From the NCBI RefSeq assembly GCF_002087085.1, contig NZ_MWQY01000011.1:124001-180301 (forward strand): DNA of 56,301 nucleotides. The letters run 5' to 3'. Under the pieces are notes generated by a model that did not search any database, was not told the DNA's origin, and was given only the letters and a program-made list of their open reading frames with translations. Positions within the stretch are counted from its first letter, which is position 1. Each line of letters starts with the position of its first letter. The translations under genes and the position numbers were made by a program. This document shows positions 3,927-18,066 of this stretch, one piece after another.

Positions 3927-6023
3927 TCAGGAATCTGCTGAATTCTTCAGGTCCCGTAGGGGAAAGCGGAGGGTAAAGCCGCTTTTTCCATCGTGGTCCA
4001 GTCGTCCCTTCATCTGCTGGGCGAGGTTCTCCACCAGCAGGAAGCCCAGGGTCTCCCGGTTCTTCGCGTCAAAATCGAATCCCGGACCCCGGTCAGCATA
4101 TTCAAGCACACACCAGTCGCCCTTCCGGAAAAGAGAGATGCGGAAACGGCATTCCCCCTGTATATTTGCGTACTTGATACTGTTGCTTACGAATTCGGTG
4201 ATAATTATACCCAGGGGAATTGCCTCATCCAGGTGGAGTCTGAGGTTTTCAATATCGAGAGAAAAGTCGATTCTTCCCGAAGCGCTGTGGGCACTCGCCA
4301 GCTGATAAACCAGGGATTCCAGATATTTCAAGGCTTCCACGCTGTAGAGGTTTTCCGACTGGTACAGGAGTTCATGAACCGCAGCTATCGCATTGATCCG
4401 CTGCCTGCTGTCGTTGAGCATGGACATGCTGGCGGGATCCCTGACCCGGTCTGTTTGAAGTCTCAGGAGGCTGATGATTATCTGAAGATTGTTCTTTACC
4501 CGATGATGAACCTCCCGCAGGAGGAGCTCATTCTTCCGGAGGGATTCCTCGAGATAGCGCTGGTTCCGGTTCCGTTCATTGATATTCCTGAGGATGGTCA
4601 GGATTGCAGTTTTTCCCTGGTAATTGACCTTGGAAACCCTGCTTTCAAACTCCAGTATACGGCCGTCCCTGCTCAGGTGATGAACCTCGTAGATTCTTGT
4701 GTCCCGGGTAAGGATTTCATGAACCCGCCTGTCAAATTCCGCCGCATATTCAGGGGTATCCAGCTCCTGAATTGTCAATCCGCGTATCTCTTCTAGGGAG
4801 TATCCGTGAAAATTTTCGACAGCTTTGTTTGCAATGAGTATTTTTCCAGAAGGACTGAAAAGAAAAATCACGTCCGGGGCGTTGTCGAAGAGTGAGAAGA
4901 ACAGTGATTCAGCCTGTTTCCGTTTTCTGATATTCAAGCCAAGGAGAAGAACGACACCGATAAGGACGACAAAGGCAATGAGTATACCTGCAAAGGTAAG
5001 GGGATAACGGAAATAGATGGTGTCCGGACGGTTGATGATTTCTGAATCGGAAGGAAGTCTGTTGACGGGAATATCGAAGCTCTTCAGGGCCTGGTAATCG
5101 AACACCGGATGAACCAGGGGAGTTCTTCTGACAGGAAGCTGATCCGGATCTTCCCCGGAAAGAATCCGGAGGGCCATCTCTGCAGCGACTTCCCCCTGAT
5201 TTTGGACGTCCAGGGCCATACCGCCCACCGTCCCGAAGCGGATTGCCACGTCCCAGGCGGTATATACCGGCCGTCCGGTCTCTGTGAGAAGGAATATGCC
5301 TTCTCTGTCGCTCAGGTTTGTACCGTTTCTCTCCTGCCAGTATCCGAGATTGAGAATCACAGCGTCTTCCGGCAGCCTGCTCAATCTGCTTCTGAGTTCC
5401 GCCGCATCCTGGCCGAATAATACTTCGTATTTAAGACCCGGGCTCCGGGGATCATTGATCCGGTCAAGAAGAAGACGGGTATTCTCGCGCCCCGAAACTG
5501 TGGAATCCGCCACGACGGCAACGGTGGTTCCGATTCCGTGAAGCCTTTCGATGAGAACGAGATTACTGGCAAGATCGAAATCCTCGGCGATTCCGGTAAA
5601 GCCGGAGGGCAGTATACGCAGGTAGGAATCATAATTATTGATGCCGCAGAATACGACGGGTACCTCCGGAAACAGTTCTGTACGGTAGTCGAGAACGAAT
5701 CGGAGGGAAGCATCATCGCTGACGATGACTACATCAAAATTGAACCCGGAATACTTGTCTTTCAGATACCCGGCAAAGCGGGGTGAGAATACCCGGGGAT
5801 CTTTTCTTTTCGCATCCAGGTATTCAAAAAACAGCTGGTGTTCTGTTTCCGAGGATTCAAAAGTCCCGATGATTCCTGTATGAATGGCTTCGGTCCAGAA
5901 AAAACCTGCATGGTAGGAGTGGAGAACCAGTACTCCGGATGCGGGGCCCGCATACACAGCAAAGGGAAAAAGAAGTATAAAACCTATAATAAGCAGTCTG
6001 AATAATATAAATACTCTCGGCAT
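3927..6023 (-). CDS. Sensor histidine kinase (periplasmic ABC-substrate-binding-like domain, TM, PAS, HisKA_2/HATPase)
   Basis: VLVLHSYH periplasmic motif, PAS region, EVHHRVKNNLQ H-box, EFVSNSIKYA N-box, DRGPG, TLGFLLV. Confidence 0.92.
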   Translation of the reverse strand: MPRVFILFRLLIIGFILLFPFAVYAGPASGVLVLHSYHAGFFWTEAIHTGIIGTFESSETEHQLFFEYLDAKRKDPRVFSPRFAGYLKDKYSGFNFDVVIVSDDASLRFVLDYRTELFPEVPVVFCGINNYDSYLRILPSGFTGIAEDFDLASNLVLIERLHGIGTTVAVVADSTVSGRENTRLLLDRINDPRSPGLKYEVLFGQDAAELRSRLSRLPEDAVILNLGYWQERNGTNLSDREGIFLLTETGRPVYTAWDVAIRFGTVGGMALDVQNQGEVAAEMALRILSGEDPDQLPVRRTPLVHPVFDYQALKSFDIPVNRLPSDSEIINRPDTIYFRYPLTFAGILIAFVVLIGVVLLLGLNIRKRKQAESLFFSLFDNAPDVIFLFSPSGKILIANKAVENFHGYSLEEIRGLTIQELDTPEYAAEFDRRVHEILTRDTRIYEVHHLSRDGRILEFESRVSKVNYQGKTAILTILRNINERNRNQRYLEESLRKNELLLREVHHRVKNNLQIIISLLRLQTDRVRDPASMSMLNDSRQRINAIAAVHELLYQSENLYSVEALKYLESLVYQLASAHSASGRIDFSLDIENLRLHLDEAIPLGIIITEFVSNSIKYANIQGECRFRISLFRKGDWCVLEYADRGPGFDFDAKNRETLGFLLVENLAQQMKGRLDHDGKSGFTLRFPLRDLKNSADS

Positions 6024-6098: not shown

Positions 6099-8597
6099 TC
6101 ATGGCTGCAACAGAAGCTGCTCTTCGAAACTGTCGTCGGTTTCATGGTAGCTGACAAGAGCCGGAGACCGGTGCCGTTCGGCTTCCGCTGTAGTGCGGGC
6201 CGCCAGTTTTACCATTTTATTGGCGCTCCAGGTAGGATGATAGCTTACCAGACCGATGTGAATGCCAAGGCCCGGTAATTTTTCCATGATTGTTGAACTG
6301 AGGCGTCGGCAGAAAAGACGGGCGTTATCCCCGTTCGTCTCCTGCAGAACGATGGGTATGGTATCGTCGGGCATTCTGAAGGGACGGTCGGAGTACTCCC
6401 TGATTTCTCCCCGTATGCAGTGGCCGATAACCCGCAGTCTGTCATCCCTCTCTTCGGGTTCGAGGATCCTCAGTTCAGGAATCGAAATGGTTATTATGGA
6501 CAGGGGAAGCCCCGCGGAATGGTAGTTCTCCACGGCGCTCTGAACGGTCGGCGTATACTCCTTCGGATCCAGCAGCCCGGAAACCCTGTCGGTGTTTTCC
6601 TTTTCTCCTTCCAGAAACTCCTCCGGAGGGGTAAGTTCAATGTCATTGCTTTCGATTATTCGGGCAGTCTCCATACTGCTTACGGAATAGATGGGTATTT
6701 CCCTGTGTCCTTCTTCGTGGCGATAGAGGGGAAACTGGCCTGATCCGTACAGGTGACTCTCCGGATTGTTCACCAGGTAATCCAGATAGCCGAGGATCAG
6801 CGCGGAATGGGAAACGAGGTTCCGGTTATCCTGGGGCAGTCCCTTGCGCTTCAGGTAACGGCGAAAACGTTGAATTACAAAACTGTCAATCTCAAAATGG
6901 AAAGGTGCATTGGCGTTTCTGATGCCCGGTTTATAGCTTTCCGGGTTCGGCTGCAGGGATCCGGAAAGCAGGCTGTAGAAACCCGAAACGGTGGTGTGCA
7001 GCTGGGGCAGGCTGCGTTCATCCGGGTATATGCTTCCCCGGGATGAGACCTGGAGATGAGGCAGCAGACTGCGGCGGATCCGGAGCATGATGAAGCTCTC
7101 CTGCTTTATTCCGGATTCGCTGTGACGGTATTCTGGGGAACGTTCAATCTGCCGGCAATAGTCTACCAGCTCGTTTAAAAGACGGCCGCAGAGAAGTTCA
7201 TCCAGCAGCCGGTTCCACCCCGAGATGTGTTTGTCAATTTCGCTCTGTATTTCCGTGGCATTGTCCTCTTCGTCGATAACCTCGCCGAATATGATTTGCC
7301 GGAAACCGTAAAGAAACTCCTGCAGCACAGCCAGGAGTACCGCAAGCTGGTGAAGAGGATTCTCCGGATGAAAGAGGTCCGCGTTCTTGGGAAAGCTGAG
7401 GATTGGTTTAAAATAGCGGAACATATCGGGGAATTCCCAGGGTTCCTCGAAGCCGCTCTGGGGGAAGAGTCTGGAAAGAAACTCCAGGGCCTTTGAGGCT
7501 TCCTCCGGGAGTTCCGCCTCCTTCTCTTCTTCCTCAGGCTCCTCCAGTATTTCTTCTTCAGCTGCTTCTGCCGTCTCTTCCTCTTCAGGGAGAAAATCCG
7601 ATTCGGCGTCGCCTGCCAGCAGGTCTTCCGGCAGACTTTCGAGAATATCGTTTCGTGTAAGAGACAGGTACTCAAGGATCTGGGGACGGAAGTAGCTGAA
7701 AAGCTCCGGATAGGGGGCGTAGGGCAGATCCGCCAGCTTTACCAGGAGGGGAGCACAGCGGCGCCGCACGTCGGTAAAAAGATGGAATATCTCCTGCTTA
7801 AGGGTACTGCCGATGCGCTTGATGCGGTCCGCCTCCCCGGAATCGGGAGGATAGGCCATCAGATCGAGATCGAAAAGCCGTTTAATCGCGGGAAGGATAT
7901 GGGTTTCCGGTTCAAGATTCACCAGTTTTACGAAGGGTCTGTAAAAGGCCCGGATGAGCTTGCCTGCGGAACTCACAGGCTGATTTCTCGGTGAACGCTG
8001 AAGAACGGTCAATTCCTGGTGGATTGTCTCGATATTCCAGCTTTTCAAAATAGTGAGTATCTGAAGACAGCGATGGTCCAGCAGAGAAGGAACCTCTTCC
8101 CGGCGGTTGATGGACATGAGAGACCGGACAGCCAGAACAAAGCGTTCCAGAGAATTGTAAAAAACCTGGTCCGCTTTGATAATAAAACGGGGGTGGAGCT
8201 GCTCATGAATGGGAATAATGAAGGAGAAAAGGCTTCCCAGTGCCTGGTGACGGGGAATCAGGGCATAATCCGTCGAGGAGGCCCAGAAGTTTATCCGGAC
8301 CCTGTCAAGGTATCCGGGATGTCTCCGCTGCAGGTCGATCTCCGGCGTTTGCTTAAACGATCCTTCCTGATAAACCTCCCGGGAACCGTGGATTATCCGC
8401 GGATCGCTGTTTCGACGGTTGAGCATTTTGAGCCGGCGGTACTTTTCCTCAAGTTCCGGCGGTGTCCGTTCTATACCTATCTCTCCGCCGAAGATTTCGG
8501 CCATTTTTCTGGCTTCATTTTCCGTCAGATCTCCGAGATTCTGCCTGGTTCGGCCAAGTTCTCCCGGGTCATAGCGCTCGGGAGGATATTTAGGCAT
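6099..8597 (-). CDS. Large hypothetical protein with acidic linker and C-terminal degenerate GGDEF-like domain
   Basis: The last ~160 aa follow the GGDEF pattern (TDRVSGLL...LSIITISI...IREYSDRPFRMPDDTIPIVLQET...HIGLVSY), with the GGDEF position reading PDDTI. Confidence 0.7.
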   Translation of the reverse strand: MPKYPPERYDPGELGRTRQNLGDLTENEARKMAEIFGGEIGIERTPPELEEKYRRLKMLNRRNSDPRIIHGSREVYQEGSFKQTPEIDLQRRHPGYLDRVRINFWASSTDYALIPRHQALGSLFSFIIPIHEQLHPRFIIKADQVFYNSLERFVLAVRSLMSINRREEVPSLLDHRCLQILTILKSWNIETIHQELTVLQRSPRNQPVSSAGKLIRAFYRPFVKLVNLEPETHILPAIKRLFDLDLMAYPPDSGEADRIKRIGSTLKQEIFHLFTDVRRRCAPLLVKLADLPYAPYPELFSYFRPQILEYLSLTRNDILESLPEDLLAGDAESDFLPEEEETAEAAEEEILEEPEEEEKEAELPEEASKALEFLSRLFPQSGFEEPWEFPDMFRYFKPILSFPKNADLFHPENPLHQLAVLLAVLQEFLYGFRQIIFGEVIDEEDNATEIQSEIDKHISGWNRLLDELLCGRLLNELVDYCRQIERSPEYRHSESGIKQESFIMLRIRRSLLPHLQVSSRGSIYPDERSLPQLHTTVSGFYSLLSGSLQPNPESYKPGIRNANAPFHFEIDSFVIQRFRRYLKRKGLPQDNRNLVSHSALILGYLDYLVNNPESHLYGSGQFPLYRHEEGHREIPIYSVSSMETARIIESNDIELTPPEEFLEGEKENTDRVSGLLDPKEYTPTVQSAVENYHSAGLPLSIITISIPELRILEPEERDDRLRVIGHCIRGEIREYSDRPFRMPDDTIPIVLQETNGDNARLFCRRLSSTIMEKLPGLGIHIGLVSYHPTWSANKMVKLAARTTAEAERHRSPALVSYHETDDSFEEQLLLQP

Positions 8598-8608
8598 TAC
8601 AGAACTCC

Positions 8609-9535
8609 CTAATCGAGGACAATTTCCATTCCCTCCCGGGCTCCCTCAATAATCATGTCCGTCTTTGATTTTACTCTGCCGCGGTAATTTCCGATGAGAT
8701 CGTCCAGCTGTTCGTCGGTCCGCAGCGGATCGTGATGAAAGAGGAGCAGATGCTTGACCCCCGCTTTGTGGGCGGAGTTTATGGCGAATTCGAAGGTTGA
8801 GTGGCCCCAGCCGATTTTCGATTCCTCATATTCACGGTGGGTATACTGGGTGTCGTGGATCAGAAGGTCGGCGCCCTGGTAAAAGCGGAGCAGTTTTTCG
8901 TTTTCTTCCTTTGCCGCCCGTTCACCTTCTTCTGCGGCGATGGGGTCATAACCGGGTGCATCCGGATCGGTGGGGAAAACGTTGCGGAAGGGTTCGGTGT
9001 CGTAGGCGGTGCAGAATACCTTGCCCCGGTACTCAAAACGGTAGCCCAGGCAGAGAATCGGATGGTTCAGATACTTGGTCGTAACCCAGAGGCCGTCCCC
9101 CAGGTCCATGGAAGACTCCTTCAGGGGATGATAGCTGATATTCGCGGCAAGTTCGGAGTGCTTTACCGGGAAGTAGCGATAGGAGAGCTGTCCTCCCACA
9201 ATATCCTTGAGTCCCTCCTCCTCGTAGGTCACCGGTCCATAAACCTTCAGCCTGGTGCTGGGAATAAAGATCGGAACGAAAAAAGGAAAACCCATGATAT
9301 GATCCCAGTGGGTGTGGGATATAAAAAGGGAGGTATCTATGGGGCCTTTGGGCAGGTCGTGCTGCATAAGGTAGTTCCCAAGGGCCCGTATCCCTGAACC
9401 GGCATCTATTATGAAGAGCCGCTCCTCCTCTCCGACTCTGAGCTCTATGCAGGCGGTATTGCCGCCGTAGGCAACTGTTGTTTCTCCGGGACAGGGAATT
9501 GACCCGCGTACACCCCACAATCGAATTTTCATCAT
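8609..9535 (-). CDS. MBL-fold metallo-hydrolase (putative phosphodiesterase)
   Basis: WGVRGSIP, YGGNTAC, IDAGSG, HxHxDH (SHTHWDH), GWGHS, FHHDP. Confidence 0.9.
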   Translation of the reverse strand: MMKIRLWGVRGSIPCPGETTVAYGGNTACIELRVGEEERLFIIDAGSGIRALGNYLMQHDLPKGPIDTSLFISHTHWDHIMGFPFFVPIFIPSTRLKVYGPVTYEEEGLKDIVGGQLSYRYFPVKHSELAANISYHPLKESSMDLGDGLWVTTKYLNHPILCLGYRFEYRGKVFCTAYDTEPFRNVFPTDPDAPGYDPIAAEEGERAAKEENEKLLRFYQGADLLIHDTQYTHREYEESKIGWGHSTFEFAINSAHKAGVKHLLLFHHDPLRTDEQLDDLIGNYRGRVKSKTDMIIEGAREGMEIVLD

Positions 9536-9554
9536 ACCCTGTATCCTTTCTGCA

Positions 9555-10430
9555 TCAGGTCGCGATCTTCAGGAAGATCCGTGCTTTCTCTATTTCACTC
9601 AGAACCTGGTCTTCAATGTCATCAAACCACTCCATGTCCACATCGAGGGCCTGGAATACCTCGGGGGGAACGCTCAAGGGGTAGCGGTCACCGGCAAAAC
9701 CGATCTCGAAGGTATTGGCAAAGAAGTTTGCCGTCGTTACCGCGTAGACAATCTTCCAGTGGGGGCCCTCGTAACTCAAGGGGGCATGGTGAAAACTGAC
9801 GGCATCCTGAATCTCCTGGTTCAGGCGCCAGCGCTGCAGAATTATCTTGGCTACCTCGCAGTGGTGAATACCCATTACGTTCTTCTCGGCCTGGATCAGC
9901 GGGGCCTGTTCCCTGTCGGCGTTCTGCATGGCCGCGACATAGGGGTCGGCCAGGCGGTTGTTCAGGGGAATTTTGCCGATATCATGGAGCAGTCCCGCCA
10001 TAAAGAATTCCTCAAGCCGTTTCGGGTCGATTTTAAGTTTCTTTGCGATCAGCTTGGAGGTTACCCCCACGCAGAGGCTGTGACGCCAGAAACCATCCAT
10101 ATTGAGGCCCTTGGCCGAGGTCCCCTTGCCCAGGTTTGCCAGGACAGCCGTGCTGAGGGCGAGGTTCTTTACAGTATTGATGCCGAGCATGATTATAGCC
10201 CGCACCAGGGAGGTAACCTCCTGGGACAGGCCGTAATAGGCGGAGTTTATAAGCTTCATCACCTTGCCCATCAGTACCGGATCGAGGCTGATGACCTGGT
10301 TGAGGTCCGCCGGTGAGGCATTGGGGTCGTTGGAGATCTCCATTATCTTGGTTACACTGGTGGGAAGACTCGGCATTTTGTCGATATAGATCTTCAGGGC
10401 ATACAGATAATTCTTTTTGTTACTCTCCAT
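9555..10430 (-). CDS. HDOD domain protein
   Basis: MPSLP, DPVL...KLINSAYYG, FWRHSL, GLLHDIGK. Confidence 0.95.
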   Translation of the reverse strand: MESNKKNYLYALKIYIDKMPSLPTSVTKIMEISNDPNASPADLNQVISLDPVLMGKVMKLINSAYYGLSQEVTSLVRAIIMLGINTVKNLALSTAVLANLGKGTSAKGLNMDGFWRHSLCVGVTSKLIAKKLKIDPKRLEEFFMAGLLHDIGKIPLNNRLADPYVAAMQNADREQAPLIQAEKNVMGIHHCEVAKIILQRWRLNQEIQDAVSFHHAPLSYEGPHWKIVYAVTTANFFANTFEIGFAGDRYPLSVPPEVFQALDVDMEWFDDIEDQVLSEIEKARIFLKIAT

Positions 10431-12813
10431 GCTCGTCTCGCTTCATGGTTTTCAGGATTTGTGTGATCCGGTGGTGCAGGGCAACTCCGATTTCCGGATT
10501 CGGCAGATACGTGGAGAGGTCTCCCATGAAAGAAAGGGTACTCTCGATCTTTCCCGGTTTCAAGACTATTCCCTCATCTTCCTGCATGTCCGGGGCAATA
10601 TACCGGGACAGCTGCTGCCGCAGGGAAGGTCGTCCGGAGAGCCTGTCCTTCAAGGCTTTCAGCCGAAGCCGCATATCGCTGTTCATGTACTCCCTGCGTC
10701 TCTCATCCGGAAGATAGCGTGTAAGGTTTTCAAGATGGGAGAGAAGTTCCGCAGGGCTCTCCTCTTTCTTCTCCTGCTGCTCTTTCCTCCGGTCCTTGGA
10801 CGGCTCCGGTTCAGGTTCCGTCTTTTTCCCGCTCCTGTTACGGGATATTTTAAGCAAGCCCAGGTCCAGGGAACCTCCCAGTTCTATTCTGCCGGGAGAG
10901 GACGGTCCCTGAACGCTGATGCTTATTGGTCCCTGGGGAGAGGAGGATGTCCCGCTGCCGCCTGACGGAGCTTCAGGTACGGAGGCCTGAGGTTCCCCTG
11001 AAGGCTGCGGCGGTGACGCCGGGGGAGCAAATACCTGCTGTATTTCGTTCTCTTCCTCTTCCTTTTCTTCCGGCGGAAACTCCGGGATCTCCTCCTCCAT
11101 TTCAAGAAGGTTGATCCGCTCTTCGTCTTCGTTTATGACGATTACCGGTTCGATTCCCCCGATATCGATGAGCCGGGCCGGCTGGTCCAGGTCGGGAATG
11201 GAATCAAAGAAGAGACTCTCCTCTTCCCTGAGAACCTCCGGTTCAACATCGGCCTCGCCGTGGTCCAGATAGCGCTTGAGATTCTCTTCCCAGAGTTTTT
11301 CATGTTCCTCCGCGAAGGCTTCAACGGTCTCTTCGTAGAGGTGCAGGGTCTGCTGCAGTTTGTCCAGATCCAGGGTTTCATCCCGCTCTCCCTGCATGTT
11401 GACCAGGGTTTCGGTGATGCGCAGTGCCTCCTCCCGGTTTCCGGCACCCCGATGGGCGCGGATCAGGGTCTCCAGGAGCTCCTCGTCGTGGGGAGACTCC
11501 TCGTAGAGTTCGCTCAGAATGGCCAAAGCTTCAGCGTAGAGATTCTCATAGAGATACAGCTTGGCAAGCAGCAGCCGTGCTGCCTGATGCCGGGGGTTTT
11601 TGGCAAGAATCCCCGATATCTGGGCTATCGCCTGCTTGTACTCTTTCATCTCCTTGTACAGCAGCGCCAGGTTGAAGGAGGTTTCCAGGTCCTCCGGCGA
11701 CAGGGCCAGGGCCCGGTTAAAGGCCTGTACCGCCTGCGGGCGGTTGCCCTGGGTCAGGTGAAGGCTTCCCAGCAGCGCGTAGGCAAAACCCGCCTTTGGA
11801 TTGTGATCCAGAATAAAACGGATCTCCTCTTTTGCCTGGCGGACCTTTCCGGTTTTAACTGCCAGGCGTGCGATCTTTTCCCGGACGTCCAGATCGGATG
11901 GAGTGTTCTGCTTCATGTGCTGCAGGTGTTCCCAGGCCTTGTCGTACTCCTCTATCTCCTCCAGTTCCGTTCCAAGGTTGATACTGGCTCTGGAGTAGGA
12001 AGGATCGTTTTTAACGGCGCGGTTCAGATAATCGATAGCCTCGGAATGGCGCCCCTGGGCACTGAGCACTACAGCGTAGTTATTGTTCAGCTTCGGGTTC
12101 TCCGCGTCCACCTCCAAAGCGCTTTTCAGTATCCGGGCAGCTTCGTCATAGTTTCCGCTCTTTTCCAGGAGTATGCCGAGATTGTTCAGTCCGTCGACCC
12201 AGTTGGGGCGGGCCTTCAGGGCCTGTCGATAAGAGTCGATCGCCTCCGGGATACACCCCTCCGACTGATAGCTGATGCCCAGGTTGTAGCGGAGGGTGGG
12301 ATTGTTGGGATCACTTTTCAGTCCCGAGAGGTAGAGATTTTCCGCTTTGGAGTGGTTTCCCCAATTCTCATAGAGATTTCCCAGGTTGTTGTAGGCCCGG
12401 CTGAATTCGGAATCCAGTTCTATAGCCTTGCGATAGTAGGTCTCCGCCTCTTCCGGCTCGTCCATCTGCTTGTACACATTCGCCAGGTTGTACCAGATGT
12501 CCGCCCGTTCAGGTGCCAGTTCCCGGGCTTTTTCCAGGGCCCCTACCGCGGCGGGCAGGTTGTCTTCGAGGCGGTAGACAATACCGATATTGTTAAAGGC
12601 CTCGGGATTCCCGTCGTCCAGCTCCAGGGATTCCTGATAAGCCTGGATCGCCTGGTTGTATCGGCCCATCTTGGTGTAGATATTGCCCAGAAACAGGAGG
12701 ATTCCCGGATGCTTCGGTTTTTGCCGGTGCATTTCACGGACGTATTTCTCCGCGCTCTCCCAGTCCCTGAGCAGAAAAGCCTTACGCGAACGGGCTGCAA
12801 GATCATTCAGCAC
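10420..12813 (-). CDS. Tetratricopeptide repeat protein with acidic/Pro-rich linker
   Basis: More than 10 TPR units (AFNNIG, AYNNLG, GLNNLG...); GTG start overlaps the upstream stop. Confidence 0.92.
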   Translation of the reverse strand: MLNDLAARSRKAFLLRDWESAEKYVREMHRQKPKHPGILLFLGNIYTKMGRYNQAIQAYQESLELDDGNPEAFNNIGIVYRLEDNLPAAVGALEKARELAPERADIWYNLANVYKQMDEPEEAETYYRKAIELDSEFSRAYNNLGNLYENWGNHSKAENLYLSGLKSDPNNPTLRYNLGISYQSEGCIPEAIDSYRQALKARPNWVDGLNNLGILLEKSGNYDEAARILKSALEVDAENPKLNNNYAVVLSAQGRHSEAIDYLNRAVKNDPSYSRASINLGTELEEIEEYDKAWEHLQHMKQNTPSDLDVREKIARLAVKTGKVRQAKEEIRFILDHNPKAGFAYALLGSLHLTQGNRPQAVQAFNRALALSPEDLETSFNLALLYKEMKEYKQAIAQISGILAKNPRHQAARLLLAKLYLYENLYAEALAILSELYEESPHDEELLETLIRAHRGAGNREEALRITETLVNMQGERDETLDLDKLQQTLHLYEETVEAFAEEHEKLWEENLKRYLDHGEADVEPEVLREEESLFFDSIPDLDQPARLIDIGGIEPVIVINEDEERINLLEMEEEIPEFPPEEKEEEENEIQQVFAPPASPPQPSGEPQASVPEAPSGGSGTSSSPQGPISISVQGPSSPGRIELGGSLDLGLLKISRNRSGKKTEPEPEPSKDRRKEQQEKKEESPAELLSHLENLTRYLPDERRREYMNSDMRLRLKALKDRLSGRPSLRQQLSRYIAPDMQEDEGIVLKPGKIESTLSFMGDLSTYLPNPEIGVALHHRITQILKTMKRDEHGE

Positions 12814-14399
12814 TATTCCAGTCTCCCGTTTGGCCGGGCACTGACTTCCACCGAGAAAAGTGTCTGATAGGGCCTGGGGGACTTGTCATAGGCCACGACC
12901 GTAAAGTAGTAGAGTCTGCCGTTTCGCAGACCACTCAAGAGAAATTCAGTGGTGTTCCCCACATCTATGGGCGAAGGGCCTTCCGAGCTGTCCTGACCGA
13001 AATACCTGCCCGGAGCAGTTCCGTAATAAATCCTGTATCCCTCCAGGTCCGGATCGGGTACGGGTTCCCATGTAAGCAATACGGCTCCGTCTTCAGGGCG
13101 TGCCTGCAGACCGGAGGGCGGAGGAGGAGGCAAATCGGGTTCGTAGATAATTGTAATGTCTGACAGCACCGGGCTTTTCTGCTCCTTTCCGTCGGGATAC
13201 AGGGCAGCCATGAGGTGGAGGTAGCGGCCCCGGGTATCGGGTGAAAATATATCACCGGGTGTAAAGGCTTTCCAGTTCGGATCGTCCGGGGGAATGTAAA
13301 AGTGAGAGTCTCCAAGCTGATAAAAGAAGAAGATATCAGAGTCATCGGGAGTCTCGTAGCTGCTCTCAATGCTGACCAGCCGGGATGCACCGAACTGAAG
13401 GTCTACAGGATTGATAAGAACCGTGCCGTCCATGTTTTTATAAGGTGCCGGAGGTCCGGATTCCCGGAATGCCGAGGAAATCCTGAATTCATCAAGGAAG
13501 CCCGAGAGGTTTTCTCCAATACTGAGCTGCCTGTTTCCGGCGGAACCCAGATAGGGGAGGAACACCGTCCCGGTTTCCCTGTTCTGGTGGTTTGCGTAGG
13601 CAATATCCTCAACGGTACCGTCTATCAGGTATTCCACCAGGCCTGTCCTGGAGTCGAACCTGAGCATGTGATGATGCCAGCGCCTGGGCATGAGTTCCCG
13701 ACTCCCTTCGAGTTCCAGGCTGAAGGAAGAGGCATCATGGGGCCGGAATACAGAGTCAAAGCGCCAGGTCAGGCGGGCTCTGCTGATCTCGCAGCTTATG
13801 GATTGGCTTCGGGGCCTCTCTCCCCACTCTCCCGGCAGTGTAACCCCGTTCCAGTTGAGGATCTTCTGGGAGGATTCGGTTTCCGCAGGGTAGAGCCAGA
13901 ACTCAATGGTAAAATCGCGCCAGTCGGTTCCCGGATAGAATAGACTCCCCGGCAACGGAACGAGTTTAAGGAGACTGCTGGATGAACGGTCGAACATGGC
14001 TGAACCGGATCCGAATACCTTACTGTTCGAATCCGGAACAATACCTTCAGGCTTCAGGGTGTAATACCGCTGTTCAGTCCAGAGGACTTCTCCCGGTACG
14101 TCGCTCTTTTTTCTGACCAGAGAGGGGGAAAGGGGAATGCTGTCGAAATGGAGCAGCAGATCAGTATACTCGTCCCTGGAATAGGCAGCATCATGAAGCA
14201 TGATATCCGAATACCCCTGAAAACCCCGTTCCAGCATCTCGGTATTATAATGATGTAATGGTCCCCAGCCGTTTTCCCTGCCCAGGACGATTTCTTCTTC
14301 CAGAGCGAAGAGGCCGGGACAGAAGAGCACAAGAATGGGCACATACAGGCGCGCAAAGAGTAGGATCGCTGATATTCCGGATCGTCTGTGTCTTTTCAT
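12813..14399 (-). CDS. Exported LamG/concanavalin-like + fibronectin type III protein
   Basis: Signal-peptide-like N-terminus; DFTIEFWLYP, WHHH, GFLDEFRIS (LamG); LTWEP...GYRIYYG...LSGLRNGRLYYFTVVAYD (FN3). Confidence 0.88.
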   Translation of the reverse strand: MKRHRRSGISAILLFARLYVPILVLFCPGLFALEEEIVLGRENGWGPLHHYNTEMLERGFQGYSDIMLHDAAYSRDEYTDLLLHFDSIPLSPSLVRKKSDVPGEVLWTEQRYYTLKPEGIVPDSNSKVFGSGSAMFDRSSSSLLKLVPLPGSLFYPGTDWRDFTIEFWLYPAETESSQKILNWNGVTLPGEWGERPRSQSISCEISRARLTWRFDSVFRPHDASSFSLELEGSRELMPRRWHHHMLRFDSRTGLVEYLIDGTVEDIAYANHQNRETGTVFLPYLGSAGNRQLSIGENLSGFLDEFRISSAFRESGPPAPYKNMDGTVLINPVDLQFGASRLVSIESSYETPDDSDIFFFYQLGDSHFYIPPDDPNWKAFTPGDIFSPDTRGRYLHLMAALYPDGKEQKSPVLSDITIIYEPDLPPPPPSGLQARPEDGAVLLTWEPVPDPDLEGYRIYYGTAPGRYFGQDSSEGPSPIDVGNTTEFLLSGLRNGRLYYFTVVAYDKSPRPYQTLFSVEVSARPNGRLE

Positions 14400-14416
14400 C
14401 TCTATTCTACTATTAA

Positions 14417-14444
14417 CTATCGGCGATCTTGCCGGTGATACTGA
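14417..14444 (-). promoter_or_regulatory. Putative sigma28 (FliA) promoter TCAG-N16-GCCGATAG for the lamG-TPR-HDOD operon
   Basis: Near-consensus GCCGATAA -10 box 17 nt upstream of the ATG at 14399. Confidence 0.55.
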
Positions 14445-14455
14445 AAACTTCTCCT

Positions 14456-14481
14456 TGCATTTTCCGTTACTTTTCCGATAG
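14456..14481 (+). promoter_or_regulatory. Putative sigma28-like promoter TGCA-N14-TCCGATAG for the hybrid cyclase gene
   Basis: CCGATAGTTA is identical to the box on the opposite strand; weak -35; 9 nt before the ATG. Confidence 0.4.
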
Positions 14482-14490
14482 TTATACTAT

Positions 14491-17274
14491 ATGGGAATTA
14501 AAGTAATTCTTGTTACTCTGACCGTAGTATCAGCGCTGATCCTGGGCGCTTTTGGGCTCTCCTTTACCCTGCTGGCTTCAGGGCTTGCAGAATTCAACGG
14601 TGGACTTCTCATTTCTGCAATCCAGATGTCCGCCGTATCTCTGATGATTGTCTGTACCCTGCTTTTTTTTGTCTTTGCCTTCCTGAGCCGGCTTCGTCTG
14701 GACCATCTCTATTTCGGTTTTTTCTCGTTAGCTGCTGTTGTGTATTCCCTGCTCAGAACCATACCGTTTTTTTCGCGGTTCTATGCCAGTGTATCGCTTA
14801 TACCCCTTCGTTCCTTTGAATTTACTCTCCTCGCAATCGGGGGAATCCTTCTTGCTCTTTTCTTTCGCCAGCGCTACCAGAGGCGTGTTTCCCTTAAACC
14901 GGTGATAGTCTATTCTATTCTCAATTTAGCTTTGGGACTGGCCTGGTTCCTGGGCCCCCAGTCTGCAGCAGTATATATGGAGAACGGTATAACAGGGCTC
15001 TCGGGCGCACTCTTTTTATTTTTTCTTGTCCGGCTGATACCCCTGATCCGGGAAAAACTGCGGGTGCTTCTTCACATTATCGGTCTTCTGGCTGTTTCGG
15101 CTGCGGGCATACACGATTTGCTTCTCCTCCGGGGACTTGTTGAGTCGGTTTACCTGCTGCCCGCTGCTTTGCTGGTGTTTGTTTTTCTGCATGTGCTGGT
15201 ACAGTTTCTTACCATTCGGGAAGATTATGCTTCTCTCCGTACCATGGACAAGAGGATACAGGCCGCAGACAGGCTGAAAGATGAGTTTCTCTCCAATATG
15301 AGCCATGAACTCAGGACCCCGATTCATGCGGTTGTCGGTCTCTCTGAGTCTCTGCTTCGGGGGAATGTGGGAGAAATGACGGAGGACCAGAAATCCACGC
15401 TCTCCCTGGTTTTCTCTTCCGGATTACGTCTTAATGCCATGGTGAGCGATATTCTGGACTTCTCCCGAATGCGGGAGGGCCGGATACAACTTCAGAATGC
15501 AGAAGTCGATCTGTATCAGTCGGTTCTTGTTGCTCAGAAGATGTGCGTACCCCTGCTGATGGGCGGACAACTGTCGATAAAAAACAATATCGTACCCTAC
15601 ACGCTGTTTGTCTGGGGGGATGAAAACAGGATAGAACAGTCCCTGAACAGCATTCTTATGTCGATTATAAAGTTTTCCAGCCAGGGGACCATCGAGATCG
15701 ATGCCCGGGAAGAAAACAGGGTGACGGTTATCTCGATAGCATTAACCGGTGGGAATCCTCTGCCCGGAAATATTGTAGAAGGCAGGGACGATGACTTCGG
15801 GGAACCCGGATTTGCAGATGAAGGCTACAAGGGAGTCAATCTCGGATTATCCCTGGCAAGACGCCTTATAGAAGCCCAGTCCGGAAGTCTTGAATACTCG
15901 GTAAAGGATGATACTTCGCTATTCCAGGTGACGCTTCCTTCAACCAGGGGTAAATACCAGGGCGAAGCCGGGGAAGCAGAGGAATCTCTGGAGATCTCCC
16001 TGGATGCTCTGGAAAACCTGGAGGCCCTGAACGACGACAACACCGAAGCCTCAAAGTTCACCATTGTCGTTGTGGATGACAATCCGGTAAATCTCCAGGT
16101 CCTTAAAAACCAGCTGTCCGGAGAGGAGTTCCGTATTGTTCCTTTCCTGAACGGAGAGAAGGCCCTGTCTCATATTCTGAATAACCCTTCCGATCTTGTT
16201 CTCCTGGATATCATGATGCCGGAGATCGACGGTTACACCCTGTGCCGTAAGGTTCGGGAAAAATATACCTCCACGAATCTGCCGATAGTTCTTGTTACTG
16301 CAAAAAGCGAGGCTATGGACATGGAGGAGGGGCTTTCTGCCGGAGCGAACGACTTCCTGGCAAAACCCTATACCCAGGAAGAACTTCTTGCCCGTATCCG
16401 GACTCACCTGAATCTGGCAAAGATAAATACCATTTACAGCCGATTCGTACCTATGGAGTTCATCGATTTTCTGGGCCACGACAACATTGCGGATATAAAA
16501 CTTGGTGACCAGGTTCAGAAGGAGATGACCGTCCTCTTTGTGGATATCCGTGCATTTACCGCGCTGTCGGAGATCATGACTCCCCAGGAGAATTTCAAGT
16601 TCATCAACTCATTCCTGAGCCGCCTGAGTCCCATGATCCAGGAGAACGGCGGCATTATCGATAAATACATCGGCGACTCCATCATGGCGCTCTTTCCCAA
16701 CCGGCCGGAAGACGCAATAAAAGCAGCAACCGAGATGGTCGGACACATGGAGATCTACAACAAGCAGCGGGCATCCTGCGGCTACAGGCCCATAAGCATC
16801 GGTGTGGGTATACATACCGGGAACCTGATTCTCGGGATTATCGGCGACAAGGGACGAATGCAGGGAACGGTGATATCCGATGCGGTAAACCTGGCCTCGC
16901 GGATTCAGGATGTGACAAAGCTCTACGGGGCGAATATCATAATCAGCCAGGAGTCCTTTATAAAGCTGGATAACCCGACGGAGTACGGATTCAGGTTCCT
17001 CGGCAAGGTGCGGGTCAAGGGAAAGAACAGGTCCGTATCCCTCTTCGAGATCTTCGACGGCGACCAGGAAGAGATGCGGGAATTAAAAACTGAAACCAAA
17101 ACCGACTTTGAGACGGCTATCCTGCAGTTTTCCAAGCGCCAGTTCGATGAATCGGCGGAACTGTTCAGGCAGATTATCGCGGTGAATTCCGAGGACAGGG
17201 CGGCCCGGCTCTTCCTGGAAAAAGCGGAAGCCTTCATTGCACAGGAGAAGCGCAGGTTCCTGTTCTCGGGGTAA
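14491..17274 (+). CDS. Membrane hybrid protein: 7TM-like region, HisKA, degenerate HATPase, REC, class III adenylate cyclase
   Basis: SHELRTP; VVDDNPVN...LLDIMMP...TAK...KP receiver; FVDIRAFT, DKYIGDSIM, TVISDAVNLASRIQ cyclase motifs. Confidence 0.92.
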   Translation: MGIKVILVTLTVVSALILGAFGLSFTLLASGLAEFNGGLLISAIQMSAVSLMIVCTLLFFVFAFLSRLRLDHLYFGFFSLAAVVYSLLRTIPFFSRFYASVSLIPLRSFEFTLLAIGGILLALFFRQRYQRRVSLKPVIVYSILNLALGLAWFLGPQSAAVYMENGITGLSGALFLFFLVRLIPLIREKLRVLLHIIGLLAVSAAGIHDLLLLRGLVESVYLLPAALLVFVFLHVLVQFLTIREDYASLRTMDKRIQAADRLKDEFLSNMSHELRTPIHAVVGLSESLLRGNVGEMTEDQKSTLSLVFSSGLRLNAMVSDILDFSRMREGRIQLQNAEVDLYQSVLVAQKMCVPLLMGGQLSIKNNIVPYTLFVWGDENRIEQSLNSILMSIIKFSSQGTIEIDAREENRVTVISIALTGGNPLPGNIVEGRDDDFGEPGFADEGYKGVNLGLSLARRLIEAQSGSLEYSVKDDTSLFQVTLPSTRGKYQGEAGEAEESLEISLDALENLEALNDDNTEASKFTIVVVDDNPVNLQVLKNQLSGEEFRIVPFLNGEKALSHILNNPSDLVLLDIMMPEIDGYTLCRKVREKYTSTNLPIVLVTAKSEAMDMEEGLSAGANDFLAKPYTQEELLARIRTHLNLAKINTIYSRFVPMEFIDFLGHDNIADIKLGDQVQKEMTVLFVDIRAFTALSEIMTPQENFKFINSFLSRLSPMIQENGGIIDKYIGDSIMALFPNRPEDAIKAATEMVGHMEIYNKQRASCGYRPISIGVGIHTGNLILGIIGDKGRMQGTVISDAVNLASRIQDVTKLYGANIIISQESFIKLDNPTEYGFRFLGKVRVKGKNRSVSLFEIFDGDQEEMRELKTETKTDFETAILQFSKRQFDESAELFRQIIAVNSEDRAARLFLEKAEAFIAQEKRRFLFSG

Positions 17275-18043: not shown

Positions 18044-18066
18044 CCTCTGCCTTTTCTCCTCCGCGT

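What the first reader, a model, noticed from the sequence alone, without database searches (positions are those of the whole stretch)
6099..17274. Candidate undescribed cyclic-nucleotide signalling module: envelope LamG/FN3 protein, TPR, HDOD, MBL hydrolase and dead GGDEF facing a pseudokinase-REC-adenylate cyclase
Seen: five tightly coupled minus-strand genes (1-nt overlap, 11-nt overlap, 19- and 11-nt gaps) share a 91-bp spacer with a divergent hybrid cyclase gene. Established: class III cyclases make cNMP; some MBL-fold HxHxDH enzymes are cyclic-nucleotide phosphodiesterases; HDOD and degenerate GGDEF domains often act as non-catalytic signalling or binding modules. Inference: the locus holds a writer (cyclase), an eraser (MBL), possible readers or scaffolds (HDOD, GGDEF-like, TPR) and an exported input protein, forming one circuit. 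I do not know of a described system with this make-up.
Basis: partly seen in the sequence, partly recalled or inferred. Interest (0 to 1): 0.72.

Follow-up and report, generated by a model that had tools for sequence, protein, structure and literature searches.

The report
Spirochaete operon carrying an HDOD–MBL pair
A conserved spirochaete operon joins an exported LamG/FN3 protein and a TPR protein to a widely shared HDOD plus metallo-hydrolase gene pair that probably breaks down a nucleotide signal, whereas the adenylate cyclase next door is only a local neighbour.

Summary
In detail: six ORFs lie at the stated coordinates with the stated spacing and domains. The 832-aa protein does end in a GGDEF-fold domain without the GGDEF motif.

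The locus is a composite, not one ancestral six-gene circuit.
1. LamG/FN3 and TPR form an old Spirochaetia-wide pair. LamG/FN3 was found in 47 of 61 relatives, including Borrelia-sized genomes.
2. Outside the window's family the divergent neighbour of this pair is uvrC (15 of 17 loci). A cyclase was found in 0 of 17.
3. HDOD–MBL is a tight cassette. It sits behind LamG–TPR in 25 of 25 assessable spirochaete genomes.
4. The cassette recurs without LamG–TPR in Thermodesulfobacteriota and other phyla. It also exists as single fused HDOD–MBL proteins.
5. Other MBL relatives are fused to REC–GAF, cNMP-binding or GGDEF modules.
6. The 832-aa gene follows MBL in 12 of 19 assessable genomes.
7. The 7TM–HisKA–degenerate ATPase–REC–class III cyclase is linked only in the window's family (7 of 7 genomes).

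Best reading: HDOD–MBL is a signalling-type phosphodiesterase unit for a nucleotide messenger, recruited into a spirochaete envelope/TPR operon. The substrate is unproven, and RNase Z-like enzymes are the closest solved relatives. The cyclase is at most a facultative partner.

The parts
12813..14399 (-). Exported LamG/FN3 protein (528 aa), first gene of the operon
   Evidence: Pfam Laminin_G_3 at residues 161-309 and fn3 at 427-506. One N-terminal hydrophobic segment only. Homologue found in 47 of 61 relatives.
10420..12813 (-). Cytoplasmic TPR protein (797 aa): TPR array at about 20-480, an acidic low-complexity linker, and a conserved C-terminal part at about 680-797
   Evidence: TPR_1 195 bits. 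No hydrophobic segment. Follows LamG in all assessable spirochaete loci. The C-terminal piece is matched separately by tblastn in many loci.
9555..10430 (-). HDOD protein (291 aa) with an intact HD-type metal site
   Evidence: HDOD 197.5 bits, HD 34.5 bits. H117, H149, D150, H190, H214 and H215 are invariant in 32 sequences. Closest solved relative is 3HC1, 159.5 bits.
8609..9535 (-). MBL-fold phosphodiesterase-like hydrolase (308 aa)
   Evidence: Lactamase_B_2 45.4 bits. H74-x-H76-x-D78-H79, H158, D179, H245, H267 and H268 are invariant in 25 sequences. The model has pLDDT 84.7. Nearest solved folds are ZipD/RNase Z, YhfI, PhnP, yeast PDE1 and Apyc1.
6099..8597 (-). 832-aa protein: conserved N-terminal peptide (residues 6-45), two helical domains (about 90-320 and 365-650), and a C-terminal degenerate GGDEF-fold domain (about 670-830)
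   Evidence: No family hit of its own. 5 of 16 orthologues hit GGDEF. Fold match to solved GGDEF domains. MPDDT stands at 742-746 in place of GG[DE]EF.
14400..14490 (.). 91-nt divergent spacer between the operon and the cyclase gene
   Evidence: Read directly. No sigma-70-like site passed the scan here.
14491..17274 (+). 7TM-HisKA-degenerate HATPase-REC-class III cyclase (927 aa); a neighbour specific to the window's family
   Evidence: Pfam domains. About 7 hydrophobic segments in residues 1-240. Motif analysis on 7 orthologues. Divergent to LamG in 7 of 7 genomes of the window's family and in 0 of 17 loci outside it.

Best explanation
The locus is a composite of four layers of different age.

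(1) Shown. An exported LamG/FN3 protein and a cytoplasmic TPR protein form an ancient gene pair found across the class Spirochaetia. Outside the window's family this pair is normally divergent from uvrC.

(2) Shown. Behind the pair sits a two-gene HDOD-MBL cassette.
- It is far more conserved than its neighbours.
- It is shared with Thermodesulfobacteriota and other phyla.
- In some organisms it is one fused polypeptide.

Inferred. The MBL protein is a binuclear-metal phosphodiesterase of the ElaC/PhnP/YhfI/class-II-PDE branch. It hydrolyses a nucleotide-type second messenger: a cyclic mononucleotide, a cyclic dinucleotide, or the linear product of one. The HDOD protein keeps a di-metal (probably di-iron) pocket. 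It acts as the regulatory or sensing subunit of the MBL enzyme, or as a second hydrolytic step.

(3) Shown. In about half of the spirochaete lineages that have the cassette, a large helical protein follows it. This protein often ends in a catalytically dead GGDEF domain.

Inferred. This protein is an adaptor or nucleotide-binding accessory. The TPR protein scaffolds the cytoplasmic components.

(4) Shown. Only in the window's family (Marispirochaeta and a sister genus) has uvrC been replaced as divergent neighbour by a membrane receptor-type cyclase protein. That protein has a HisKA domain, a decayed ATP-binding domain, an intact receiver and an intact class III cyclase domain.

Inferred. Phosphorylation of the receiver by another kinase controls cAMP synthesis. 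The shared 91-nt control region may co-regulate the cyclase with the operon in this lineage, but the cyclase is not a constitutive part of the module.
For: Synteny
- LamG/FN3 was found in 47 of 61 relatives.
- An MBL orthologue of 57% identity or more was found in 30 of 61.
- LamG-TPR-HDOD-MBL occurs in that order in 25 of the 25 genomes where the contig allows a check. The other 5 are cut by contig ends.
- The LamG-TPR pair occurs without the cassette in G011, G039, G040 and G041, and in Borrelia-sized genomes.

Conservation outside the genus
- MBL 56-76% and HDOD 53-68% identity.
- LamG 28-44%, TPR 27-40% and the 832-aa protein 25-37% identity.

Cross-phylum pair
- Among 80 named loci, 51 of the 53 assessable ones with MBL at 55% identity or more have HDOD directly upstream, mostly 3-60 nt away.
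- 23 of the 43 such loci with 5.5 kb or more of upstream sequence lack LamG; by their record titles these come from phyla other than Spirochaetota.
- A quick tree puts a Thermodesulfobacteriota clade (28 rows, SH-aLRT 98) next to a Spirochaetota clade (51 rows, 93).

Fusions
- P0020 and P0021 are HDOD-MBL single proteins of 605 and 609 aa, 62% and 57% identical to the window's MBL.
- 1484 longer homologues have E <= 1e-10.
- Of the 120 listed, about 112 carry GAF (a subset also have a REC hit on record), 3 carry cNMP_binding and 2 carry GGDEF.

Active sites
- The MBL motif residues are invariant.
- The five His plus one Asp of HDOD are invariant. The same set is described as binding two iron ions in 3HC1 (passages of PMC12075610).

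Fold
- Nearest solved structures are phosphodiesterases of nucleotides or nucleic acids. They include YhfI, yeast PDE1, an AMP/GMP-bound Brucella protein and Apyc1.
- Rv1339, a PF12706 MBL-fold enzyme, is a proven cAMP phosphodiesterase (passages of PMC9293780).

Cyclase
- Linked in 7 of 7 genomes of the window's family and in 0 of 17 loci outside it, where uvrC is divergent in 15.
- uvrC of the window's genome lies on another contig.
- The receiver and cyclase residues are invariant. The N-box Asn and the G1 box are lost in Marispirochaeta but kept in the sister genus.

Other
- All 30 genomes with the MBL orthologue have class III cyclases, against 16 of the other 31.
- Contigs from 4 RNA libraries of 2 studies cover parts of all six genes. 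They bridge the LamG/TPR, HDOD/MBL and MBL/832-aa junctions.
Against: - No activity is shown for any of these proteins.
- The curated cNMP-phosphodiesterase model NF041851 scores only 41.9 bits against a cut-off of 400. RNase Z models score higher (83.1 against 292.95), and RNase Z/ZipD top both the sequence and the fold searches.
- The Apyc1 Pfam model is only faintly matched in relatives, 11.9 bits against 50.
- The GAF domains of the fused relatives lack the NKFDE motif (0 of 120). I recall this motif as typical of cNMP-binding GAFs.
- The only HDOD with intact HD residues tested in a paper I read (DVU0330) had weak bis-pNPP activity and none on c-di-GMP (passages of PMC4114195).
- SadB's HDOD works as a protein adaptor without a ligand.
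- G032 and G060 have LamG followed directly by a 31%-identical MBL, yet no class III cyclase was found in them.
- The 832-aa gene is unlinked in 7 of 19 assessable genomes.
- In Desulfobulbales the cassette sits among translation and RNA genes: EF-G, DeaD and an RF-1 domain protein.
- RNA contigs show neither strand nor a single transcript.
Confidence: 0.5

Rival explanations
1. All six genes form one dedicated cAMP circuit: the divergent cyclase writes cAMP, the MBL erases it, HDOD, dead GGDEF and TPR read or scaffold it, and LamG/FN3 is the external input.
For: - The divergent arrangement is kept in 7 of 7 genomes of the window's family across two genera, with cyclase identity down to 50%.
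- MBL relatives are fused to cNMP-binding domains.
- An MBL-fold PF12706 cAMP phosphodiesterase is known, Rv1339.
- 30 of 30 genomes with the MBL orthologue encode class III cyclases.
Against: - 0 of 17 loci outside the family have a cyclase beside lamG; uvrC sits there in 15.
- HDOD-MBL occurs in other phyla with no cyclase nearby.
- The window's genome has 7 class III cyclase genes, so this one is not unique.
- LamG/FN3 has no cytoplasmic domain to pass a signal, and it occurs in cyclase-free Borrelia-sized genomes.
Confidence: 0.15
2. The HDOD-MBL cassette belongs to c-di-GMP turnover. One protein linearises c-di-GMP or binds it, and the RNase Z-like MBL degrades the linear dinucleotide pGpG. 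The dead GGDEF protein acts as a c-di-GMP or GTP receptor.
For: - HDOD is a frequent fusion partner of EAL (128 proteins) and GGDEF (28). It has been proposed as a pGpG hydrolase (passages of PMC2952852).
- A degenerate GGDEF protein follows the cassette in 12 of 19 assessable genomes.
- MBL-REC-cNMP-GGDEF fusions exist.
- The MBL resembles RNA phosphodiesterases.
Against: - DVU0330's HDOD did not cut c-di-GMP.
- The GGDEF domain is absent from many members of the 832-aa family, which occur as short forms of about 650-700 aa.
- Its I-site reads RxxxD rather than RxxD (the motif rule is recalled).
- The cassette is present in 10 of 30 genomes where the 832-aa protein was not found.
Confidence: 0.2
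3. The MBL is a housekeeping RNA or metabolite phosphodiesterase, RNase Z/PhnP-like, and HDOD is an ordinary HD phosphohydrolase. The operon serves envelope or RNA housekeeping and has nothing to do with second messengers.
For: - RNase Z/ZipD are the best sequence and fold matches.
- 56-76% identity across families fits a core enzyme.
- Neighbours in other phyla include EF-G, DeaD helicase, an RF-1 domain protein, RlmN and BamA.
- The genome's own MBL paralogue lies beside pyrD/pyrK.
Against: - All RNase Z models score far below their cut-offs.
- The family's fusion partners are signalling modules: REC, GAF, cNMP_binding, GGDEF and HDOD.
- The conserved insertion at residues 185-220 is strongly acidic, which is unlike a nucleic-acid-binding arm (this is inference).
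- The cassette was not found in 31 of 61 relatives, so it is not essential.
Confidence: 0.25

Closest known systems
Atypical class-II (MBL-fold, PF12706) cyclic-nucleotide phosphodiesterases: Rv1339 of mycobacteria, with YhfI of B. subtilis as structural template
   Same: Same Pfam family hit, PF12706. HxHxDH binuclear site. YhfI (6kns) is among the five best fold matches. A weak match to the curated model NF041851.
   Different: - Scores 41.9 bits against the model's cut-off of 400.
- About 60 residues longer, with a conserved acidic insertion and a distinctive N-terminal WGVRGS motif.
- Always partnered with, or fused to, HDOD.
- Its substrate is untested.
RNase Z / ElaC / ZipD
   Same: Best sequence and fold match among solved structures. 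A phosphodiesterase of the same MBL branch.
   Different: TIGR02651 scores 83.1 against a cut-off of 292.95. Its gene and fusion partners are signalling domains, not RNA-processing ones.
HDOD proteins: G. sulfurreducens 3HC1, D. vulgaris DVU0330, P. aeruginosa SadB
   Same: Full-length HDOD, 159.5 bits to 3HC1. It keeps the five His and one Asp that bind two iron ions in 3HC1.
   Different: A stand-alone protein encoded with, or fused to, an MBL hydrolase. Searches for 'HDOD' together with 'MBL' (0 papers) and for 'HDOD' with 'metallo-beta-lactamase' and 'spirochete' (none relevant among the 15 papers listed) found no description of this pairing. SadB lacks three of these His residues and acts as a protease adaptor.
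Degenerate GGDEF receptor or scaffold domains (for example PelD, PopA; recalled, not tested)
   Same: GGDEF fold with the catalytic motif lost.
   Different: Attached to a helical region of about 650 aa and unknown fold that has no solved or named relative. The I-site is not canonical. The domain is dispensable in many family members.
Hybrid histidine kinase-receiver-class III adenylate cyclases such as cyanobacterial CyaC (recalled)
   Same: HisKA, receiver and class III cyclase in one chain, with an intact phospho-acceptor His and Asp.
   Different: A 7TM N-terminus. The ATP-binding domain has lost the N-box Asn, the G1 box and the F box in the window's genus, while the sister genus keeps them.

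Membership tests
Class III nucleotidyl cyclase (PF00211) | Pfam score above the gathering cut-off | tested here: met
   67.9 bits against 21.9, residues 676-847.
Class III nucleotidyl cyclase (PF00211) | Two metal-binding Asp, a substrate-specifying Lys plus Thr/Asp, and the transition-state Asn and Arg (the residue roles are recalled from the literature) | tested here: met
   D685, D729, K725, T793, N800 and R804 are invariant in 7 orthologues. A K/T pair suggests ATP as substrate (recalled).
Histidine kinase (HisKA + HATPase_c) | Phospho-acceptor His in the H box | tested here: met
   H272 within SHELRTP (271-277) is invariant.
Histidine kinase (HisKA + HATPase_c) | Intact ATP-binding N, G1 and F boxes, and an HATPase_c score above the cut-off | tested here: not met
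   HATPase_c scores 25.7 against 26.4. The N-box Asn is Ser, G1 reads LTGGNP, and the F-box region is deleted. The G006 orthologue keeps all three.
Response regulator receiver (PF00072) | Acidic pair, phospho-acceptor Asp, Thr and Lys | tested here: met
   D529, D530, D573, T603 and K625 are invariant. Score 98 bits.
GGDEF diguanylate cyclase (PF00990) | GGDEF fold | tested here: met
   Foldseek matches to 4zve, 3qyy and 3ign at TM 0.77-0.84 and rmsd 2.0-2.1. 5 of 16 orthologues hit PF00990.
GGDEF diguanylate cyclase (PF00990) | GG[DE]EF catalytic motif, and a Pfam hit of the protein itself | tested here: not met
   MPDDT at 742-746. The position is degenerate in all 13 aligned orthologues that have the domain. 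The window's protein has no Pfam hit.
HDOD (PF08668) | Full-length Pfam match | tested here: met
   197.5 bits, profile positions 1-196 of 196.
HDOD (PF08668) | Di-metal pocket of five His and one Asp, as in 3HC1 | tested here: met
   H117, H149, D150, H190, H214 and H215 are invariant in 32 sequences. The alignment to 3HC1 keeps these motifs. The ligand count is taken from PMC12075610. Metal binding itself was not tested.
MBL superfamily, Lactamase_B_2 (PF12706) | HxHxDH and the further His/Asp ligands | tested here: met
   H74, H76, D78, H79, H158, D179, H245, H267 and H268 are invariant in 25 sequences. Score 45.4 bits against 27.
Cyclic nucleotide-degrading phosphodiesterase (NCBIfam NF041851) | Score above the curated cut-off | tested here: not met
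   41.9 bits against 400.
Cyclic nucleotide-degrading phosphodiesterase (NCBIfam NF041851) | Hydrolysis of cAMP/cGMP | not testable with these tools
   Needs an enzyme assay.
RNase Z (TIGR02651) | Score above the curated cut-off | tested here: not met
   83.1 bits against 292.95.
LamG/ConA-like (PF13385) plus FN3 (PF00041) exported protein | Both domains above their cut-offs, and an N-terminal export signal | tested here: met
   30.7 bits against 27.6 and 31.0 against 25. A single hydrophobic segment at residues 9-40. Whether it is cleaved or serves as an anchor was not tested.

The most novel reading that the evidence does not exclude
HDOD-MBL is an undescribed two-subunit (sometimes fused) second-messenger phosphodiesterase of anaerobic Spirochaetia and Thermodesulfobacteriota. 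The di-iron HDOD pocket senses a redox, O2 or NO-type cue, or performs the first hydrolytic step. It thereby gates the binuclear MBL hydrolase. This would give the HDOD domain its first defined biochemical role. In spirochaetes the TPR protein would tether this enzyme, together with the dead-GGDEF adaptor, to a core envelope LamG/FN3 system.
Probability: 0.2. Interest if true: 0.75.

Novelty: new variant of a known kind. Interest (0 to 1): 0.55.

Why it matters
HDOD is one of the commonest bacterial signalling domains that still lacks a defined activity. The papers I read report only weak or absent activity, or an adaptor role. A strictly conserved and sometimes fused partnership with an intact MBL phosphodiesterase gives a concrete enzyme pair to purify and test. 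If the MBL degrades a cyclic nucleotide or dinucleotide, it would define a large family of messenger phosphodiesterases: about 1,500 fused relatives were found in one search. It would also fill a gap in spirochaete and sulfate-reducer signalling.

The work also corrects the six-gene 'circuit' idea. The cyclase is a recent neighbour that took the place of uvrC. It further flags LamG/FN3-TPR as an uncharacterised gene pair found across most Spirochaetia searched, including Borrelia-sized genomes.

Tried and rejected
- **Complex prediction for HDOD + MBL (alignments A3 and A1).** The job was never run. The tool was declared unavailable. Physical binding therefore rests on gene order and fusions only.
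- **The search of earlier findings** by place, by sequence and by words returned nothing.
- **ESM Atlas** on residues 1-660 of the 832-aa protein gave no usable hit.
- **The Foldseek run on the 832-aa model** returned only GGDEF-domain matches, so the first 650 residues stay unexplained.
- **The promoter/terminator scan** gave no site in the 91-nt spacer and no convincing internal terminator. The counts (18 against 8.8 expected, 25 against 17.2) carry no weight here.
- **RNA-library contigs** leave 14348-15115 uncovered. This proves nothing.
- **The NKFDE motif** in the GAF domains of fused relatives was found in 0 of 120, so GAF gives no support for cNMP.
- **The Pfam Apyc1 (anti-Pycsar) model**, listed in the precomputed annotations, is only a faint match of 11.9 bits. 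It was rejected as a membership.
- **Literature on the Borrelia counterparts.** I assigned the locus tags BB0458/BB0459 from recall of uvrC = BB0457. The search found only a list of predicted exported proteins and an intergenic-spacer list.
- **EF-G as part of the module.** EF-G lies near the cassette in the window, in G002 and G054, and in 16 Desulfobulbales-type loci. Different genes lie between them, and the genome has three EF-G-like genes. I treat this as unexplained, not as evidence.
- **The histidine kinase gene at 3927-6023** as a sixth operon member. It is conserved downstream only in part of the genus.


Full report
**1. The observation**

The ORF list gives these ORFs:
- 12813-14399(-), 528 aa
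- 10420-12813(-), 797 aa
- 9555-10430(-), 291 aa
- 8609-9535(-), 308 aa
- 6099-8597(-), 832 aa
- 14491-17274(+), 927 aa

Pfam confirms most domain calls:
- Laminin_G_3 and fn3 in the first protein.
- A long TPR array in the second.
- A full-length HDOD domain (197.5 bits, also above the HD cut-off) in the third.
- Lactamase_B_2 in the fourth.
- HisKA, Response_reg and Guanylate_cyc in the plus-strand protein. Its HATPase_c scores 25.7 bits, just under the 26.4 cut-off.

A hydropathy scan gives:
- One N-terminal hydrophobic segment in LamG/FN3.
- None in the TPR, HDOD, MBL and 832-aa proteins.
- About seven in the first 240 residues of the cyclase protein.

The organism is a Marispirochaeta. 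The 832-aa protein is 98% identical to a hypothetical protein of M. aestuarii. A genus-mate contig is Ca. Marispirochaeta associata.

**2. The 832-aa protein**

It has no Pfam or NCBIfam hit of its own.

I aligned the window's protein with 15 orthologues (A2). Four ORFs were left out: two near-duplicates (L026, L029), one cut by a contig end (L008) and one with an in-frame TGA (L038, the error).

Five of the 16 members hit GGDEF on their own, best E 3e-14.

The AlphaFold model (pLDDT 79.4, pTM 0.42) shows four parts:
- A short N-terminal helical piece.
- Two helical domains, about 90-320 and 365-650.
- An alpha/beta domain at 670-830.

The last domain matches solved GGDEF domains, for example 4zve at TM 0.83 and rmsd 2.0, and 3qyy at TM 0.84.

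The signature position reads MPDDT (742-746) and is degenerate in every orthologue. So 'dead GGDEF' is right.

The first 650 residues match nothing solved or named.

A profile search of 1.84 billion representatives found 196 proteins at E <= 1e-30. They fall into long forms of about 800-900 aa and short forms of about 650-700 aa that lack the GGDEF-like domain. That domain is therefore an accessory of the family.

**3. Synteny among relatives**

In 61 genomes of the class (G000 plus 60 relatives):

| Gene or family | Genomes with a match |
|---|---|
| 832-aa protein, strong match | 20 |
| MBL orthologue, 57% identity or more | 30 |
| LamG/FN3 | 47 |
| Class III cyclase (PF00211) | 46 |

I fetched the neighbourhoods and mapped the six proteins by tblastn.

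- LamG-TPR-HDOD-MBL occurs in that order in all 25 MBL-orthologue genomes where the contig reaches far enough. The other 5 are cut by contig ends.
- The 832-aa gene follows MBL within 5 kb in 12 of 19 assessable genomes. It is elsewhere in 7 (G006, G007, G020, G023, G036, G044, G046). One genome (G019) cannot be judged.
- The cyclase gene is divergent to lamG in all 7 genomes of the window's family, which span two genera with cyclase identity down to 50%. It is found nowhere else.

For 17 loci outside that family with 3 kb or more upstream of lamG, I scanned the upstream ORFs with Pfam:
- uvrC is the divergent neighbour in 15. It is directly adjacent in 14 and 2.7 kb away in L056.
- The other two loci (L047, L053) have other genes there.
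- None has a cyclase.

uvrC is also divergent to lamG in a Borrelia-sized genome and in G011. In the window's own genome uvrC lies on another contig. The cyclase therefore replaced uvrC as neighbour in one lineage.

**4. LamG/FN3-TPR is older than the rest**

- The pair occurs without HDOD-MBL in G011, G039, G040 and G041.
- It also occurs in genomes with a chromosome of about 0.9 Mb. There, lamG lies among uvrC, holA and dnaX, and the gene after lamG is a 435-aa TPR protein.
- In G032 and G060, lamG is followed directly by a 276-aa MBL protein only 31% identical to the window's. No class III cyclase was found in those genomes.

**5. HDOD-MBL is a cassette of its own**

Outside the genus, identities to the window's proteins are:

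| Protein | Identity |
|---|---|
| MBL | 56-76% |
| HDOD | 53-68% |
| LamG/FN3 | 28-44% |
| TPR | 27-40% |
| 832-aa protein | 25-37% |

A scan of one genome per species with the MBL alignment (A1, 25 of my 30 ORFs) confirmed 567 relatives among 590 matched stretches. The best 80 were kept.

- Among loci with MBL at 55% identity or more, 51 of the 53 with enough upstream DNA carry HDOD directly upstream. One exception (L101) has HDOD about 800 nt upstream; the other (L077) has none.
- Below 55% identity the figure is 8 of 21.
- Of the 43 high-identity loci with 5.5 kb or more upstream, 20 have lamG, all from Spirochaetota. The other 23 do not. These are Desulfobulbaceae, Desulfocapsaceae, Desulfatiglans, a gamma-proteobacterial symbiont and others.

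Neighbours there are varied and include no cyclase. Examples are EF-G, a HisA/F-like protein, a tail-specific protease, DeaD and BamA.

A quick maximum-likelihood tree (103 rows; the careful search did not finish; midpoint root) places the HDOD-linked MBLs in one clade (SH-aLRT 95). Within it, a Thermodesulfobacteriota subclade (28 rows, 98) sits beside a Spirochaetota subclade (51 rows, 93). Two contigs labelled Desulfobacterales or 'delta proteobacterium' nest inside the spirochaete subclade.

**6. Fusions**

A search restricted to longer proteins found 1484 homologues at E <= 1e-10. Among the 120 listed:
- Two are HDOD-MBL single chains: P0020 (605 aa, 62% identity) and P0021 (609 aa, 57% identity). 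They have the same order as the genes. I confirmed both by my own Pfam scan.
- About 112 carry a GAF domain; a subset also have a REC hit on record. For the two I rescanned, the order is MBL-REC-GAF.
- Three carry cNMP_binding, and two of those also carry REC and GGDEF.

The MBL family is therefore a recurrent enzymatic partner of signalling modules.

**7. Active sites and fold**

*MBL.* H74, H76, D78, H79, H158, D179, H245, H267 and H268 are invariant. Its model (pLDDT 84.7, pTM 0.87) is nearest to these solved structures:
- ZipD/RNase Z (2cbn, 1y44)
- An ElaC homologue (1zkp)
- YhfI (6kns)
- PhnP (3g1p)
- Yeast PDE1 (4ojv)
- A Brucella protein solved with GMP/AMP (3md7, 3qh8)
- Apyc1 (7u2r)

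Profile-to-sequence search of the PDB also puts RNase Z first, at E 3.6e-10. All curated NCBIfam models are far below their cut-offs: RNase Z scores 83.1 against 292.95, and the cNMP phosphodiesterase model 41.9 against 400. Passages of PMC9293780 describe Rv1339 as a cAMP phosphodiesterase of the PF12706 'atypical class-II' group, modelled on YhfI.

*HDOD.* Five His and one Asp (H117, H149, D150, H190, H214, H215) are invariant in 32 sequences from five or more phyla. The closest solved protein is 3HC1. Passages of PMC12075610 state three things:
- 3HC1 binds two iron ions through five His and one Asp.
- SadB lacks three of these His residues.
- SadB works without a ligand.

Passages of PMC4114195 report that DVU0330's HDOD, which has intact HD residues, had weak bis-pNPP activity and none on c-di-GMP. 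Passages of PMC2952852 count 128 EAL-HDOD and 28 GGDEF-HDOD fusions and suggest a pGpG hydrolase role.

**8. The cyclase protein**

In 7 orthologues these residues are invariant:
- The H-box His (H272).
- The receiver residues D529, D530, D573, T603 and K625.
- The cyclase residues D685, K725, D729, T793, N800 and R804. Their roles are recalled from the class III literature.

The N-box Asn, the G1 DxGxG box and the F box are intact in the sister-genus orthologue (G006). In the window's protein they are replaced or deleted. The kinase half has therefore decayed within the family, while the receiver and cyclase stayed under strong constraint. The residues from about 640 to the C-terminus are nearly invariant. 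The receiver is then probably fed by another kinase. The genome holds 7 class III cyclase genes.

**9. Expression**

Four metatranscriptome runs from two studies hold short contigs, 95-100% alike, on parts of all six genes. Single contigs span three junctions:
- LamG/TPR (12666-12869)
- HDOD/MBL (9346-9711 and 9422-9816)
- MBL/832-aa (8443-8784)

These are assembled contigs from RNA libraries. They show presence only. They do not show strand, level or a single transcript, and DNA carry-over is not excluded.

**10. Reading**

Shown:
- The composite architecture and its evolutionary layering.
- The tight coupling of HDOD and MBL.
- The intact catalytic and metal residues.
- The dead GGDEF domain.
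- The lineage-specific placement of the cyclase.

Inferred:
- The MBL hydrolyses a nucleotide messenger.
- HDOD regulates or complements it.
- The TPR and 832-aa proteins act as scaffold and adaptor.
- In Marispirochaeta the cyclase may be co-regulated with the operon.

The substrate is open. My rough split is:
- Cyclic mononucleotide: 0.25
- Cyclic or linear dinucleotide: 0.2
- RNA or other phosphodiester: 0.25
- The remainder is unassigned.

The co-occurrence figures agree with a cNMP role: 30 of 30 MBL-orthologue genomes have class III cyclases, against 16 of the other 31. The support is weak, because both traits track large, free-living genomes and the genomes are kin.

**11. Literature and novelty**

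- Full-text search for 'HDOD' together with 'MBL' found 0 papers.
- Search for 'HDOD', 'metallo-beta-lactamase' and 'spirochete' (any two terms) found nothing relevant among the 15 papers listed of 48.
- None of the 16 papers holding 'HDOD domain' describes such a pair in the listing or in the passages I read.

Subscription-only papers are not covered. Supplements were not opened.

Noticed in passing
window 17752-18050: A 73-bp tandem repeat of 4.1 copies with 97% matches lies between the cyclase gene and the DUF72 gene. Each copy holds a small GC-rich hairpin followed by a T-rich run.
   Followed up: partly
window 3927-6023 (-): A PAS-HisKA_2-HATPase histidine kinase lies 76 nt downstream of the 832-aa gene on the same strand. 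It has two TM segments flanking a periplasmic domain of about 320 aa. It is kept there only in part of the genus (L026, L030, L062) and is apparently broken into three frames in G002 (L027). It could feed the receiver of the kinase-dead cyclase protein, but nothing tests this.
   Followed up: partly
window 19090-21186 (+); loci L079-L084, L090, L093, L094, L096-L100, L102, L110: An EF-G gene lies near the cassette in the window. In 16 Desulfobulbales-type loci the order is EF-G, a hypothetical gene, a HisA/F-like gene, HDOD, MBL. The EF-G proteins are 67-71% identical across the two phyla. The window's genome has three EF-G-like genes. This may be a co-transferred block or a coincidence.
   Followed up: partly
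L148 7162-9482 (G060) and L149 (G032): In one spirochaete family, lamG is followed directly by a 276-aa PF12706 MBL only 31% identical to the window's, with no TPR or HDOD gene between. No class III cyclase was found in these genomes.
   Followed up: partly
L142 5710-8527 (G031) and L143 (G059): Genomes with a chromosome of about 0.9 Mb (Borrelia-like by their uvrC model hit) keep the LamG/FN3 gene plus a 435-aa TPR gene, divergent from uvrC and near holA and dnaX. This uncharacterised pair therefore persists even in Borrelia-sized genomes and was found in 47 of 61 relatives.
   Followed up: partly
L157 1455-6807 (G000 contig C45): The genome's second MBL of this family (41% identity) lies next to pyrD/pyrK-like genes and an AbiEi/AbiEii toxin-antitoxin pair, not next to signalling genes.
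   Followed up: partly
L038 15049-17049 (G044): The 832-aa homologue of G044 carries one in-frame TGA. Like G007's and G020's, it lacks the GGDEF-like domain.
   Followed up: no
L074, L092: Two contigs labelled Desulfobacterales or 'delta proteobacterium' carry an MBL that nests inside the spirochaete clade in the quick tree. This could be transfer or mis-binning.
   Followed up: no
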